NCBI GenBank assembly: GCA_965203325.1 | Contig: OZ241875.1 | Coordinates: 1,504,001-1,568,000, forward strand | Source: a bacterium | GTDB lineage: Bacteria > UBA8248 | Length of the DNA: 64,000 bases | Direction of reading: 5' to 3' | Part shown: in pieces, positions 28,387 to 31,295 of the stretch | How the letters are laid out: each line of letters starts with the position of its first letter | Position numbering within the stretch: the first letter of the stretch is position 1 | The notes under the pieces: model-generated | Told to the model about the DNA's origin: nothing | Seen by the model: only the letters and a program-made list of their open reading frames with translations | The model's database searches: none | Translations under genes and position numbers: made by a program

Positions 28387-28414
28387 GTAGGGGCCGCATA
28401 TATGCGGCCCTTGC
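28387..28414. repeat. GTAG-type REP palindrome (partner of the IS-interrupted REP)
   Basis: GTAG-GGGCCGCATATATGCGGCCC. Confidence 0.8.
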
Positions 28415-28584
28415 GGGTCGGATCGTCAAGCCGTCGTAAAACCCATCCAGGAATTGCGCCGTTAGACGGGACGGAACTATCAATGGCGAAAACCACTCTG
28501 CGCGGGACGATGGGATGGACGCCTCCTTCCGGCAGTTTAGAATGTGGCGAGGTAACGTCACACACCGCCCGGAAGGAGACGACC

Positions 28585-29610
28585 ATGGAAGGAGTCTACA
28601 TCATCGGCATCGATCTGGCGAAGAACAGTTTTCAACTCCACGGGGCGCGGGCGGACGGTTCGGTCGCGTACCGCAGGAAGCTGACGCGCGCGAAGGTGCT
28701 GGGCTTTCTGGCCTCGCAGCCGCGTTGCGTGGTGGCGATGGAGGCGTGCGCGGGGGCGCACCATTGGGGCCGGGCGCTCGGTCGTCTCGGCCACGAGGTG
28801 AAGCTGCTGCCGCCGGCCTACGTGAAGCCCTACGTGAAGCGCCACAAGAACGACGCGGCGGACGCGGAGGCGATTAGCGAGGCGGCCACTCGCCCGACGA
28901 TACGTCCGGTGGCGGTAAAGAGCGAGGAACAGCAGACGCACGGGATGCTGTACCGGGCGCGCGATTTGCTGGTGGGTCACCGGACCCGGACGATCAACGC
29001 CTTGCGGAGTCATCTGGCGGAGTTCGGGGTCGTCGCGCGTCAGGGGCCCGTTGGCCTCACGAGATTGGTGGTTGCGGTTCGGGGAGCGGAATCGGGTCTG
29101 CCCGAGGCGGTCCGGGAGCTGGGCGAGGTTCTGCTGGAGGAGATCGCCGGCCTGAAGGCGAAGATAGAGGAGTTGGAGAGGCGGCTGTGCGCGAGCGTCC
29201 GCGATGACGAGGAGGCGCAGCGGCTGATGAGCATTCCGGGGGTCGGGCCGATAACGGCGTCGGCGATCCGGGCGTTCGCGCCGCCGATGGAGAACTTCCG
29301 TCGGGGCCGGGACTTCTCGGCCTGGCTGGGTCTGGTCCCCCGGCAGCACACCACGGGGGGCAAGCCCCGCCTGGGGCGGATATCGAAGATGGGCCAGCGC
29401 GACGTGAGGCGGCTGTTGATCATGTGCGCGATGTCGGTGATTCGCCAGGCCGTTCGGCGCGGCGCGCCGCGGGGTTCGTGGCTGGCCCGGATGCTGGCGC
29501 GCAAGCCTCGTATGCTCGTCGCGGTGGCGCTGGCCAACAAGATGGCGCGCATCGCGTGGGCGCTGCTGCGGAACAAGGAGTTCTACAGGGAACCGGCGCC
29601 CCTCGCCTGA
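28585..29610 (+). CDS. IS110 family transposase/recombinase (DEDD RuvC + Tnp20 domain)
   Basis: GIDLAK, AMEAC, KNDAADAEAI, SIPGVGPITA, WLGLVPRQHTTGGK, VALANKMARIAW; AGGAG RBS. Confidence 0.95.
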   Translation: MEGVYIIGIDLAKNSFQLHGARADGSVAYRRKLTRAKVLGFLASQPRCVVAMEACAGAHHWGRALGRLGHEVKLLPPAYVKPYVKRHKNDAADAEAISEAATRPTIRPVAVKSEEQQTHGMLYRARDLLVGHRTRTINALRSHLAEFGVVARQGPVGLTRLVVAVRGAESGLPEAVRELGEVLLEEIAGLKAKIEELERRLCASVRDDEEAQRLMSIPGVGPITASAIRAFAPPMENFRRGRDFSAWLGLVPRQHTTGGKPRLGRISKMGQRDVRRLLIMCAMSVIRQAVRRGAPRGSWLARMLARKPRMLVAVALANKMARIAWALLRNKEFYREPAPLA

Positions 29611-29865
29611 GCGGCGCGCGGATAGAGTCGGGAGGAATGTGAGCCGGTCGGAGGAAGGGTAAGGGCAAACGGTCATCGAGACGGGATCGGGGCAACCAGG
29701 TACATGCGACGAGCGAACCACCGAGCTCGCCGGGACGATTCGGACCCGATCCGCGCATCTCCATACGGGCCCGCGGCCAGCATGAAGCGCCGCAACGAAG
29801 AGGCCGAATGTACGACTGAGCCGAACCGCTTTGCGCCGAACCCTCCAAAAAACCGCTTGCATTCC
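29611..29865 (+). ncRNA. Putative bridge/seekRNA of the IS1111-type element
   Basis: Stem GGATCGGG/CCCGATCC encloses target-matching TACATGCG (29701) and CGGGACG (29731); donor-matching ATGTACGA at 29808. Exact RNA ends are unknown. Confidence 0.75.
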
Positions 29866-29976
29866 AAGGGGGCGTCCATGTACGCATATATGCGTCCCCT
29901 ACACAATTCGTATATACCGAACCAAATAAGCCATAAATGTTAGTTAAAAAGGCACGGCAAAGTGTTCTCCACACAC

Positions 29977-30007
29977 AAAAAAACCGGGGGGCCGAAGCCC
30001 CCCGGTT
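29977..30007 (-). terminator. Rho-independent terminator of the porin gene
   Basis: AACCGGGGGGC-TTCG-GCCCCCCGGTT followed by a T-run on the minus strand. Confidence 0.88.
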
Positions 30008-30047
30008 GTCGTCGCGTCAGGTGAGGACGCGAGCGTCCTTCATGCTG

Positions 30048-31295
30048 CTAGAAGATGTGGCGCAGCGTCCAGCCGACCGCCCAGCCGTCGTCGATCTCCG
30101 GGCCATCAACCGCTCTGCCGTAATCGCCGCGCAGGATAACGGCGCCCACACCGCGAAGCTCGAGGTTCGAGTGGATCTTCCACTTGAAGGCGGCGTTGAG
30201 CTCTGTGCCGAATTCCTTCGCGTCCATCGTGTTCGGTGCGAGGGAAGGCTCTGCGGAATTGTAGAGGGATACACCGCCGCCCAGCGTCAGGGTCTTGCTG
30301 ACCTTGAAGTCGGCCAGCCCCTCGATCACGGTCGCGCCGTTCAAGGCGCCCAGGTGCACGCTTCTGATGCCGTTGCCCAGAGTCGTCCAGCGGCGCGAAG
30401 TCATAATGTGGCCGCCGAAGAACCAGCCGGAACCGCCTTCCTGAGGCGTCCTGAACCGGCCGTCCTCACCGGCCCTGGCACCGTCATTGCCGGAGAGCAT
30501 CGTGAGGTTGCCGCTCAGCTTCAGTTTGCCCAGACTCGTGGAAGTCCTCACCAGAACGGCCCAACCCGAGAGCTCATCGCCGGGTTCGCGGGGATCATCG
30601 CTCGAGAGGTCACCTTCCTGGATGACCATAGAACCGTTCACGTTGAGGATGCCTACCTTGGTCTTGACGTGGATGCCGAGGAAGCTGTAGTCGTAGCCGC
30701 CGAGCACCGCGTCCCTGGAGTTGGCCGCCCACGGTGTAACCGTTAGCGTCGGGTTCACCTTGATGCCCACGCCGACGTAGTAATCCGTCTTGTCGTCGTT
30801 TTCGGCGCTGGTATCTTCCTTCGACTTGGTCATGAACGCGCTGAGCGACATGTTCTTGCTGAGCTTACCGTAGATCGCAATGCCCGGTTCACGGGAACGA
30901 CCGCTGCTGTCGTAGATTTCCTTGTCCGGCGAGAAATAGTCCGTCCGGCCCATACGCATGCGGAGCGCGCTGCCCGGAACGGCGAAGTCGATCACCCAGC
31001 GGTTGACGCCGACAGTCTGCCGGCCGGGACCGATTGAGAAGCCGCCGTTCGCGCTTACGAATTCGGGCTCCCACACGGCCGTGACGGCGCCGCTTTTCGC
31101 CGTGAAGCGCGGGCGGATGAGCGCGTCCAGGTAATTACTCTTGTCATTTACGTCATCGTTTCCGTCTTTGTTGACGTTTTCGCTGGATCCGCGCACTCGG
31201 AAGAAGCCGCTGAACTTGAGGTCGGCCGCGTACGAGGGCGCTACAAACGTCGCCAAGAGCGCCAGCGCAAATAGAGTTAACAGAATTTTCCTCAT
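30048..31295 (-). CDS. Outer-membrane beta-barrel protein (porin/alginate-export-like)
   Basis: Signal peptide, alternating amphipathic strands, C-terminal ...WTLRHIF. Confidence 0.75.
   Translation of the reverse strand: MRKILLTLFALALLATFVAPSYAADLKFSGFFRVRGSSENVNKDGNDDVNDKSNYLDALIRPRFTAKSGAVTAVWEPEFVSANGGFSIGPGRQTVGVNRWVIDFAVPGSALRMRMGRTDYFSPDKEIYDSSGRSREPGIAIYGKLSKNMSLSAFMTKSKEDTSAENDDKTDYYVGVGIKVNPTLTVTPWAANSRDAVLGGYDYSFLGIHVKTKVGILNVNGSMVIQEGDLSSDDPREPGDELSGWAVLVRTSTSLGKLKLSGNLTMLSGNDGARAGEDGRFRTPQEGGSGWFFGGHIMTSRRWTTLGNGIRSVHLGALNGATVIEGLADFKVSKTLTLGGGVSLYNSAEPSLAPNTMDAKEFGTELNAAFKWKIHSNLELRGVGAVILRGDYGRAVDGPEIDDGWAVGWTLRHIF

What the first reader, a model, noticed from the sequence alone, without database searches (positions are those of the whole stretch)
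29611..29865. Readable bridge/seekRNA programmed against the host REP palindrome
Seen: the 3' non-coding region has an 8-bp stem (29684-29691/29745-29752) and an inner 5-bp hairpin that frame two loop segments. TACATGCG (29701-29708) is a 7/8 match to the reverse complement of the right target flank CGCATATA, and is perfect for the CGCATGTA REP variant at ~12452. CGGGACG (29731-29737) is a perfect match to the left target flank plus core. Downstream, ATCTCCATACG (29757-29767) loosely matches the left-end donor bottom strand, and ATGTACGA (29808-29815) perfectly matches the circle junction. Established: IS110/IS1111 recombinases use such RNAs to specify target and donor, and IS1111 members encode them downstream of tnp. 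Inference: this is a probably uncatalogued RNA-guided recombinase with an (A)CG core whose guides can be read off and reprogrammed.
Basis: partly seen in the sequence, partly recalled or inferred. Interest (0 to 1): 0.85.

Follow-up and report, generated by a model that had tools for sequence, protein, structure and literature searches.

The report
Guide-RNA insertion sequence targeting REPs
This is an intact jumping gene of a kind first described in 2024 whose own folded RNA spells out the short palindromic repeat it inserts into; it is a clear and well-supported new example, not a new mechanism.

Summary

- **What it is.** The region is the 3' non-coding part of a 1375-bp IS1111-type (IS110-family) insertion sequence, window 28508-29882. 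It sits in a REP palindrome of the rare form GGGACG...CGTCCC.
- **Copies and empty site.** A second, identical copy lies in another REP of the same form. A metagenome contig shows this very locus without the element.
- **Structure.** In 20 related elements the 8-bp stem and inner hairpin keep pairing through compensatory changes.
- **Guides.** The loop segments are the most variable columns, and they change together with the flanking DNA. Across 23 guide types, 0 of 20000 permutations reached the observed match for either target guide. The downstream ATGTACGA tracks the right-end tip.
- **Weaker points.** ATCTCCATACG as a left-end guide is not established. The core is CG, not ACG. "Uncatalogued" could not be checked against ISfinder.
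- **RNA.** Its existence is inferred, not shown.

This is a new member of a known kind (seekRNA/bridge RNA, 2024). The scan has reported the same kind in other genomes. The added value is a natural series of single-base guide variants that match REP variants.

The parts
28504..28507 (+). Left half of the interrupted REP target (GGGA; with the following CG it reads GGGACG)
   Evidence: Identical in both copies. The empty-site contig joins 28506 to 29882, with 3 letters that fit either side.
28508..29882 (+). The insertion sequence, 1375 bp, by the IS1111 convention (7-bp left extension, 3-bp right extension). Equivalent to 28510-29884 if the CG is counted on the right.
   Evidence: Two 100% identical copies, window 28504-29903 = G000:C1:20510-21909. 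A contig skips exactly 1375 bases. The extension rule comes from a PMC11187229 passage.
28508..28514 (+). Left terminal extension CGATGGG (begins with the core CG)
   Evidence: conserved as YGATGGN in relatives.
28515..28526 (+). Left subterminal inverted repeat ATGGACGCCTCC
   Evidence: 11 of 12 match to the reverse complement of 29868-29879.
28516..28543 (+). Promoter-like site TGGACG-16-TAGAAT upstream of tnp
   Evidence: Consensus scan only: 1 site found against 0.2 expected.
28585..29610 (+). Transposase/recombinase gene, 341 aa
   Evidence: Pfam DEDD_Tnp_IS110 (3.8e-15) and Transposase_20 (1.3e-24). GLxPxxxxTG motif at residue 249. 41.6-41.9% identity over 98% of its length to IS4321/IS5075 transposases.
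29660..29683 (+). Near-invariant 5' segment of the RNA region (TAAGGGCAAACGGTCATCGAGACG)
   Evidence: Mean column identity 0.93 over alignment columns 1-40.
29684..29691 (+). 5' arm of the outer stem of the target-binding stem-loop
   Evidence: Pairs with 29745-29752. 8 pairs, 99.4% of cells paired, 2 pairs with compensatory changes.
29701..29708 (+). Target guide T (TACATGCG), complementary to the top strand right of the insertion point (core CG plus CATGTA)
   Evidence: 7/8 to its own flank CGCATATA and 8/8 to CGCATGTA REPs. The sister element in G001 has 5 of 5 right flanks CGCATGTATG. Covaries with right flanks: 0 of 20000 permutations.
29710..29729 (+). Inner hairpin (CGAGC / GCTCG)
   Evidence: 4 aligned pairs, 2 with compensatory changes; one pair reads AU 9, UA 6, CG 1, GC 1.
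29731..29737 (+). Target guide B (CGGGACG), same sense as the left flank plus core, so complementary to the bottom strand
   Evidence: Exact match to the left flank. Position 29735 is A here, C in L031 and T in L034, and A>C / A>T in metagenome contigs. Covaries with left flanks: 0 of 20000 permutations.
29745..29752 (+). 3' arm of the outer stem
29757..29767 (+). Conserved segment ATCTCCATACG; a possible left-end (donor) guide or a structural element
   Evidence: Only CCAT pairs with the left-end start ATGG here (4 Watson-Crick pairs). Test inconclusive. RNAalifold pairs TCTC with GAGA at 29678-81 instead, but those pairs never vary.
29768..29805 (+). Second stem-loop: GGCC 29768-71 with GGCC 29802-05, enclosing hairpin GCGGC 29773-77 / GCCGC 29789-93
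   Evidence: RNAalifold consensus of 30 sequences. GCGGC/GCCGC is 98% paired with 1 compensatory pair. The GGCC pairs are invariant, so untested.
29808..29815 (+). Donor guide ATGTACGA: right-end tip ATGTA, core CG, then the first left-end base A
   Evidence: In 46 of 61 related RNA regions the equivalent 7-mer recurs exactly downstream, and 11 distinct 7-mers are involved. In the close relatives it follows the right inverted repeat (GGCGTCCAY); the Rhodobacteraceae group has a different repeat, and L089 and L082 had a misplaced left end.
29857..29862 (+). Conserved TTGCAT, a possible -35 of a circle-junction promoter
   Evidence: Conserved in 21 of the 27 sequences aligned; the other six have a different sequence at this place. 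Its function is inference only.
29868..29879 (+). Right subterminal inverted repeat GGGGGCGTCCAT
29880..29882 (+). Right terminal extension GTA
   Evidence: the 3-bp rule is from the passage.
29883..29903 (+). Right part of the REP target (CGCATATATGCGTCCCCTAC)
   Evidence: Identical beside both copies. It belongs to the genome's REP family.

Best explanation
Window 28508-29882 is an intact, recently active IS1111-type insertion sequence. Its 3' non-coding region (about 29660-29830) is transcribed on the + strand into a seekRNA/bridge RNA.

The first stem-loop has an 8-bp outer stem and a 5-bp inner hairpin, and it presents two single-stranded guides. TACATGCG pairs with the top strand to the right of the insertion point. 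CGGGACG pairs with the bottom strand to the left. Both cover the CG core, so together they spell GGGA-CG-CATGTA, one arm and the loop of the host REP.

A second stem-loop carries ATGTACGA, which spells the right-end tip plus core plus the first base of the left end, that is, the circle junction. The 341-aa DEDD recombinase bound to this RNA would excise the element as a circle. It would then exchange strands at CG, inserting the element in one orientation into REPs of the matching form.

Shown: the anatomy, the empty site, identical copies, structure covariation and guide-flank covariation. Inferred: that the RNA is made, binds the recombinase and is required.
For: **Family anatomy**
- Pfam domains of the recombinase.
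- 341 aa, aligned over 98% of its length to IS4321/IS5075 transposases.
- GLxPxxxxTG motif.
- 12-bp subterminal inverted repeats, 11 of 12 matching, with 7-bp and 3-bp extensions.
- 75 nt of non-coding DNA before the gene against 272 nt after it.

**Mobility**
- Two 100% identical copies in two REPs of the same form.
- A contig of run X20 carries the same locus with exactly 1375 bases missing and 3 ambiguous letters. That is the uninterrupted site GGGACGCATATATGCGTCCCC.

**Structure**
- On 20 related elements, 19 pairs are 98.2% paired and 5 pairs show changes on both sides.
- 0 of 500 shuffles reach the observed value in 4 of the 5 measures; slid controls give 21-42% paired.
- 20 aligned cells are G-U or U-G pairs. 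These would be C-A mismatches on the other strand, so the structure is read on the + strand.

**Guides**
- Loop columns are the least conserved (identity 0.52 and 0.57 against 0.89-0.93 for the scaffold).
- Among 23 guide types, guide B matches its own left flank at 4.65 of 7 positions on average, against 2.14 for the flanks of others.
- Guide T shares a 6.43-nt run with its own right flank, against 3.42 for others. 0 of 20000 permutations reach either value.
- The nearest sister (L031 type, guide CGGGCCG) has GGGCCG on the left in 3 of 3 full copies and CGCATGTATG on the right in 5 of 5 copies.
- In G003, two sub-lineages differ only in guide T (ATATATGTCC or ATGCGTGTCC). They sit at GACATATAT in 3 of 4 copies and at GACACGCA in 2 of 4 copies respectively.

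**Donor guide**
- The equivalent 7-mer recurs exactly downstream of the guide in 46 of 61 RNA regions; in the close relatives it abuts the right inverted repeat. 11 different 7-mers are involved.

**Agreement with the literature**
- Guide order and overlap agree with PMC11187229.
- Bridge RNAs were predicted in the right end of 93% of IS1111 elements (PMC11208160, passage).
Against: - No direct evidence of the RNA. The three RNA-library runs are only assembled contigs. They cover 29571-29894 in variants about 95% alike, may contain DNA, and cannot show ends or strand.
- No promoter-like site was found upstream of the RNA region, and there is no Rfam match.
- The whole-NCR folding energy is no better than shuffles.
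- Guide T has one mismatch (C opposite A) to both of this element's own insertion sites.
- No free REP in this genome matches guide B: 0 of 94.
- L034's guide (T at the variable position) sits in a C-form REP. In G003, 2 of 8 copies have flanks of the other sub-lineage.
- Related lineages share targets, so the 23 guide types are not independent. About 7 are Rhodobacteraceae types with one target.
- Ends were found with regular expressions of my own. 24 of 61 rows were left out: most had no defined end, or an end that failed the filters, and three (L082, L032, L060) were excluded by hand.
Confidence: 0.88

Rival explanations
1. Only the first stem-loop (the short seekRNA) is a guide. On this reading ATGTACGA at 29808-15 is not an RNA donor guide. 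It is a DNA copy of the right-end tip, an internal pseudo-end that the recombinase uses to make alternative circles or modules. Its co-variation with the right end would then reflect DNA-level recombination or gene conversion.
For: - In L032 the right end is joined exactly at the CG core to the DNA that follows the internal ATATACG. This gives a 70-bp tandem duplication.
- L060 carries 10.2 perfect copies of a 131-bp unit made of the second stem-loop plus the right end.
- Four transposase-less RNA-region/right-end remnants exist in this genome.
- ISPpu9 forms circles of separate modules (abstract of PMC12288879).
- The 82-nt short seekRNA was sufficient for ISEc11 movement (passage of PMC11187229).
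Against: - The segment lies in a position that mirrors guide B: just 3' of a hairpin and followed by conserved letters.
- Bridge RNAs with donor loops were predicted for IS1111 elements.
- The two readings do not exclude each other. DNA that encodes a donor guide necessarily looks like the donor.
Confidence: 0.25
2. Target choice is made mainly by the protein recognising the REP hairpin. The RNA-like matches would be by-products: captured target fragments, or pairing that only fine-tunes a protein-determined site.
For: - All four closest lineages (this window, L031, L034, L032/33) insert into REP-like palindromes ending in CCCCTAC.
- For ISPpu10, a stem-loop in the target was reported as a second specificity determinant (abstract of 10.64898/2026.03.19.712850).
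- This element tolerates a mismatch in guide T at both of its sites.
Against: - Relatives with the same scaffold insert into many non-REP sequences that match their loops.
- Single-letter loop changes match REP variants.
- Structure covariation and G-U pairs point to an RNA.
- A structural contribution by the REP hairpin is not excluded and could add to RNA guidance.
Confidence: 0.07
3. The matches are chance in a GC-rich region, and the element is an ordinary IS without a guide.
For: - CGGGACG alone turns up in 2230 of 20000 resampled NCRs.
- The folding energy of the NCR is not exceptional.
Against: - All three matches together: 0 of 20000.
- Guide-flank permutation tests: 0 of 20000.
- Compensatory changes in the stems.
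Confidence: 0.01

Closest known systems
IS1111-family elements with an experimentally shown seekRNA (ISEc11, ISPa11, ISKpn4, ISPst6; Siddiquee et al. 2024, PMC11187229; sections and passages read)
   Same: - Recombinase of about 340 aa.
- Subterminal inverted repeats with 7-bp and 3-bp extensions.
- Long non-coding region after the gene.
[quoted passage not shown]
- Natural reprogramming among relatives.
   Different: - A different clade. No sequence comparison with those four elements was made here, and the supplementary figures that show their folds could not be opened.
- No experimental evidence for RNA or activity here.
- That ISPa11 targets REPs is recalled from memory, not seen in a call.
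IS621 bridge RNA (IS110 group; Durrant et al. 2024, PMC11208160, passages read)
   Same: - Two-loop logic: one loop for the target and one for the donor.
- Each loop reads both strands around a dinucleotide core.
- A REP is the natural target (the reference title seen says IS621 inserts in E. coli REPs).
   Different: - In IS621 the RNA lies in the left end, before the gene, and the guide order is reversed.
- IS621 has only 2-3-bp subterminal repeats.
- Here the core is CG. The left-end donor guide is not established.
IS4321 / IS5075 (canonical IS1111-family members on enterobacterial plasmids)
   Same: The transposase aligns over 98% of its length.
   Different: - Only 41.6-41.9% identity.
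- A different target: they insert in the terminal repeats of Tn21-family transposons, according to a reference title seen.
ISPpu9 / ISPpu10 of Pseudomonas putida (abstracts read)
   Same: - REP-occupying IS110-family elements.
- ISPpu9 has extra stand-alone copies of its downstream small-RNA gene and modular circles. This resembles the four transposase-less RNA-region remnants and the tandem modules seen here.
   Different: - Ssr9 was reported as not required for ISPpu9 transposition.
- No sequence comparison was made here.

Membership tests
IS1111 group of the IS110 family | DEDD (RuvC-like) N-terminal domain plus the PF02371 C-terminal domain | tested here: met
   PF01548 at 3.8e-15 (residues 7-146) and PF02371 at 1.3e-24 (residues 211-288), both above the curated cut-offs.
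IS1111 group of the IS110 family | Transposase of 330-350 aa, related over its full length to IS1111-type transposases | tested here: met
   341 aa. 41.6-41.9% identity over 98% of its length to transposases annotated IS4321 and IS5075. No tree separating the IS1111 and IS110 groups was built.
IS1111 group of the IS110 family | GL-P----S(t)G motif in the C-terminal domain (PMC11187229) | tested here: met
   GLVPRQHTTG at residue 249.
IS1111 group of the IS110 family | Subterminal inverted repeats of about 11-13 bp, with asymmetric terminal extensions of 7 bp (left) and 3 bp (right) | tested here: met
   ATGGACGCCTCC at 28515-26 against GGGGGCGTCCAT at 29868-79, 11 of 12 matching. Extensions are CGATGGG and GTA, given the ends fixed by the empty site. 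The rule is from the passage.
IS1111 group of the IS110 family | The longer non-coding region lies downstream of tnp | tested here: met
   77 nt from the left end to the start codon, against 272 nt from the stop codon to the right end.
IS1111 group of the IS110 family | Site- and orientation-specific insertion without added bases | tested here: met
   Both copies have the same position and orientation in the same REP form. The empty site differs by exactly 1375 bases.
seekRNA / bridge RNA | [quoted passage not shown] | tested here: met
   TACATGCG at 29701-08 lies 5' of CGGGACG at 29731-37, and they overlap on CG.
seekRNA / bridge RNA | The guides differ between elements with different targets and match each element's own flanks | tested here: met
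   23 guide types; 0 of 20000 permutations for each guide. Sister lineages are shown. Exceptions: L034, L120, L132.
seekRNA / bridge RNA | A conserved secondary structure presents the guides in internal loops | tested here: met
   98.2% of cells paired and 5 pairs with changes on both sides; 0 of 500 shuffles.
seekRNA / bridge RNA | A donor-binding loop that reads both ends of the element | tested here: inconclusive
   The right-end guide is supported: 46 of 61 exact matches and 11 distinct 7-mers. The left-end guide is not established: 4.89 self against 4.57 cross, 1446 of 20000 permutations.
seekRNA / bridge RNA | The RNA is produced and binds the recombinase | not testable with these tools
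   Contigs from three RNA libraries cover the NCR, but they may derive from DNA and show no ends or strand.
seekRNA / bridge RNA | The RNA is required for transposition, and changing it retargets the element | not testable with these tools
   Natural variants only.
Rfam RNA families | A match above the gathering score | tested here: not met
   No family matched inside 29611-29884, even at E-values up to 10. Whether Rfam 15 holds a model for IS1111 guide RNAs was not checked.

The most novel reading that the evidence does not exclude
The guide letters of this IS lineage track the polymorphic letters of the host REP family, so that sister lineages divide the REP variants among themselves.

Guide position 29735 is A here, C in L031 and T in L034. 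It reads A>C and A>T in metagenome contigs. It faces exactly the one variable stem position of the REP, which among free copies is C 51, T 39, G 4 and A 0.

Guide position 29703 is C here and T in the contigs that cover it in all four runs laid. It faces the A/G position of the REP loop.

The variant in this genome is a specialist whose perfect site no longer exists free (0 of 94). That would explain why it stopped at two copies, while the C-guide sister has five in its genome. U at either position could act as a generalist through G-U wobble.

If true, copy number and spread of RNA-guided insertion sequences are set by single-base guide-target matching within a repeat family. The element would also provide a ready-made natural specificity series.
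Probability: 0.35. Interest if true: 0.55.

Novelty: new member of a known kind. Interest (0 to 1): 0.36.

Why it matters
It adds a well-documented natural example to the RNA-guided recombinases described in 2024. The example is a compact 341-aa enzyme with a readable guide RNA and a clade of at least 23 guide types, so the guide code can be read directly from genomes.

The single-base guide variants that correspond to REP variants offer a simple test set: the mismatch next to the core, the mismatch four bases from it, and U as a possible wobble reader. These could show how strictly such systems discriminate targets, which matters for their use as genome-insertion tools.

For the genome itself it is an ordinary annotation: an IS1111-type insertion sequence in a REP, with no effect on neighbouring genes evident.

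Tried and rejected
- **Whole-NCR folding energy against shuffles.** Not significant (z = +0.53), so it is no argument either way in this GC-rich DNA.
- **Rfam scan at permissive threshold.** It found only terminator-like hits outside the element.
- **Promoter scan.** It found one site before tnp and none before the RNA region. The idea that TTGCAT at 29857-62 and the junction form a hybrid promoter was not tested and stays inference.
- **A wider element (28504-29904) that carries the REP.** This followed from the extent of identity between the copies. I rejected it because the inverted repeats, the empty site and the relatives all place the ends inside.
- **ACG as the core.** Rejected, because relatives share only CG or TG at the two junctions.
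- **ATCTCCATACG as a left-end guide.** The permutation test was inconclusive.
- **First regular expression for left ends.** It found nothing and was corrected.
- **** failed on a frame slip and was repeated.
- **** timed out and was repeated with a faster script.
- **Two ORFs next to the orphan RNA regions.** Pfam gave nothing.
- **RNA-library contigs.** They cover the transposase gene only in short conserved patches. I draw no conclusion from that, nor from the small word shares of X18-X20.
- **ISfinder** could not be searched, and the supplementary files of the papers were not available. Supplementary figures of PMC11187229 and Supplementary Table 5 of PMC11208160 may already list close relatives or their targets.

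Full report
**1. Observation**

- GGATCGGG (29684-91) and CCCGATCC (29745-52) are exact reverse complements.
- They enclose TACATGCG (29701-08), a 5-bp hairpin (CGAGC 29710-14 with GCTCG 29725-29) and CGGGACG (29731-37).
- ATCTCCATACG (29757-67) and ATGTACGA (29808-15) follow.
- A REP with CGCATGTA stands at window 12452.

Taken alone, the matches are of mixed weight. In 20000 Markov resamplings of the 269-nt non-coding region, CGGGACG appeared 2230 times. A 7/8 match to the complement of CGCATATA appeared 760 times, and ATGTACGA 19 times. All three together appeared 0 times. The folding energy of the whole region is no better than shuffles (z = +0.53).

**2. The element**

ORF 28585-29610 encodes a 341-aa protein with the Pfam domains DEDD_Tnp_IS110 and Transposase_20 and the motif GLVPRQHTTG. 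It aligns over 98% of its length, at 41.6-41.9% identity, with transposases annotated IS4321 and IS5075. The best plasmid-borne relative is 65% identical.

The genome holds two copies that are 100% identical over window 28504-29903. The identity extends beyond the element because both copies sit in the same form of REP: GGGACG on the left and CATATATGCGTCCCCTAC on the right.

The ends are fixed by three lines of evidence:
- The 12-bp subterminal inverted repeats, 28515-26 and 29868-79, match at 11 of 12 positions.
- Left ends of relatives align from YGATGG.
- A contig of run X20 carries this locus, with 4 differences in 69 bases on the left side. It joins 28506 directly to 29882, skipping 1375 bases, with 3 letters that fit either side.

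By the convention of PMC11187229 (7 bp left and 3 bp right of the repeats, passage), the element is 28508-29882. It is inserted between GGGA and CGCATATA. Relatives share only CG (or TG) at both junctions. The core is therefore CG, and the extra A is a coincidence of this REP form with the right-end tip GTA.

**3. The target family**

I searched the genome for the reconstructed 24-base site, allowing up to 4 mismatches. This gave 96 places, of which 94 are free. The single variable stem position is C in 51, T in 39, G in 4 and A in 0. The loop position is A in 66, G in 27 and T in 1.

The only two A-form REPs in the genome are the two occupied ones. Against this element's guides, 27 free REPs have one mismatch to guide B only, and 67 have one mismatch to each guide. 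Free A-form REPs do exist in other contigs of runs X18 and X3.

**4. Relatives and structure**

The search for related loci returned the best 80 of 515 confirmed relatives, at 49-85% protein identity.

Twenty-seven non-coding regions were aligned. I kept 20, one per lineage. I dropped L032, L039, L044, L046, L048, L050 and L051 as copies of L033, L040, L045, L047 and L052 (A1).

On the four helices that I named:
- 98.2% of 379 cells pair.
- 5 of 19 pairs show changes on both sides.
- 0 of 500 shuffles reach the observed value in four measures, and 5 of 500 in the fifth.
- Sliding the partners gives 21-42% pairing.
- Twenty cells are G-U or U-G, which is compatible only with the + strand.

Further helices proposed by RNAalifold never vary and so stay untested. 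These are GAGA with TCTC, GGTC with GGCC, and GGCC with GGCC.

Column identity is 0.93 and 0.89 in the scaffold, but 0.52 and 0.57 in the two loop segments.

**5. Guides against flanks**

With anchors read from the alignment, I found 61 target stem-loops in the 82 sources. Left ends were placed by the conserved left-end pattern. Right ends were placed by an exact downstream recurrence of the donor 7-mer. Neither criterion uses the target guides.

Thirty-seven rows passed all filters and form 23 guide types. The filters were: both ends defined, an exact donor match, an element length of 1340-1400 bp, and removal by hand of L082 (an N in its left end), L032 and L060 (tandem duplications).

- Guide B matches its own left flank at 4.65 of 7 positions on average, against 2.14 for the flanks of others.
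- Guide T shares a 6.43-nt run with its own right flank, against 3.42 for others.
- 0 of 20000 permutations reach either sum.
- The types are related, and about seven share one target, so these are not independent trials.

**6. Closest lineages**

L031 (85% protein identity, non-coding region 94.7% identical) has guide B CGGGCCG. L034 has CGGGTCG.

In the genome of L031, five copies of that element all have CGCATGTATG on the right. The three with a recognisable left end all have GGGCCG on the left. L034 is an exception: its T-form guide sits in a C-form site.

In G003, two sub-lineages differ in guide T. One has ATATATGTCC, with GACATATAT on the right in 3 of 4 copies. The other has ATGCGTGTCC, with GACACGCA in 2 of 4 copies and a third copy hidden by a duplication. 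Two copies (L120, L132) carry the flank of the other sub-lineage.

Contigs of the four runs laid show other letters at 29703 (C>T in all four). That change makes guide T perfect for CGCATATA. They also differ at 29700, and at 29735 (A>C in X20, A>T in X19). The present element thus has one mismatch to both of its own sites, which at least one transposition must have tolerated.

**7. Donor side**

The 8 bases after AGGCCGR (here ATGTACGA) equal the right-end tip plus core plus the first left-end base.
- In 46 of 61 rows the 7-mer recurs exactly downstream; in the close relatives it follows the right inverted repeat.
- 6 rows match with one mismatch, and 9 have none or no guide found.
- The exact matches comprise 11 different 7-mers.

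ATCTCCATACG is almost invariant among close relatives, and only CCAT pairs with the left-end start here. Over 19 distinct combinations, self complementarity is 4.89 of 8 against 4.57 for others, reached by 1446 of 20000 permutations.

An alternative for ATGTACGA is that it acts as a DNA pseudo-end. In L032 the right end is fused at the core to the DNA behind the internal copy, giving a 70-bp duplication. L060 has 10.2 perfect 131-bp units.

**8. Expression**

Three metatranscriptome runs from two studies hold contigs covering 29571-29894. These are assembled contigs of variants and may derive from DNA. They show no ends or strand, so they are at most a weak hint. No promoter-like site precedes the region. 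PMC11187229 proposes co-transcription with the transposase mRNA followed by processing (passage).

**9. Comparison and novelty**

All tested features of the IS1111 group are met. The guide order and overlap are those described for IS1111 seekRNAs. Bridge RNAs were predicted in the right end of 93% of IS1111 elements. REP-occupying IS110-family elements are known from reference titles and from the abstracts.

The scan has already reported this kind in several other genomes. The finding is therefore a new member of a known kind. What is specific to it is the natural one-letter guide series facing the polymorphic letters of a REP family, and the absence of any free perfect target in this genome.

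**10. Sources seen**
- PMC11187229: outline, sections 6, 9 and 13, and passages.
- PMC11208160: passages.
- PMC12288879 and 10.64898/2026.03.19.712850: abstract and outline only.
- Older papers (Partridge and Hall 2003; Tobes and Pareja 2006; Choi 2003; Ramos-Gonzalez 2006): seen only as reference titles.
- That ISPa11 targets REPs is recalled from memory.

Noticed in passing
G000:C1:3861179-3861323 (-), 3862554-3862694 (+), 1999092-1999206 (+), 4227835-4227943 (-) (loci L113-L116): Four transposase-less copies of the guide-RNA region lie in the same genome. The scaffold is conserved, but the loops differ: position B reads GTAAGCG or GTAATCG. Two of them keep a right end. Three are preceded by a right-end-like GTCCATGTACG. 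They recall the stand-alone ssr9 copies of ISPpu9.
   Followed up: partly
L114 1775-2827 (+) and 145-1302 (-): A 350-aa ORF sits exactly where a transposase gene would be, directly upstream of the orphan RNA region at 3862554. A 385-aa ORF lies next to the other orphan. Neither has any Pfam match.
   Followed up: partly
L060 2669-4002: A tandem array of 10.2 perfect copies of a 131-bp unit, made of the second stem-loop of the guide region plus the right end of the IS. It runs off the end of the locus.
   Followed up: partly
L032 2725-2870: A 70-bp tandem duplication in which the right end of the IS is fused, at the CG core, to the DNA following the internal donor-guide copy. The DNA that encodes the guide seems able to act as a recombination site. 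L072 has a similar 10-11-bp duplication of the right-end tip.
   Followed up: partly
window 28391-28412 and L002 1437-1465: Both IS-bearing REPs are the second member of an inverted REP pair. Upstream of the occupied REP (its left half lies at the element's left junction), the DNA contains GGCGAAAA(A)CCA. The same arrangement, with a free A-form REP, appears in contigs of X18 and X3. The A form may be typical of such pairs.
   Followed up: no
L046 1249 and L047 1250: A second, different target stem-loop (other guides, no transposase gene) lies about 170 bp upstream of the left end of the IS in both loci. It is another orphan guide region next to an IS.
   Followed up: no
window 29977-30046 (-): A strong terminator hairpin (11 pairs followed by a T run) behind the porin-like gene 30048-31295 (-). 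It gives weak sub-threshold Rfam hits to Xanthomonas sRNA families, probably because of the terminator alone.
   Followed up: no
(runs X1-X17): Near-identical copies of the element occur in contigs of several sponge, coral-reef and biofilm metagenome studies. The host lineage seems to be associated with marine invertebrates.
   Followed up: no
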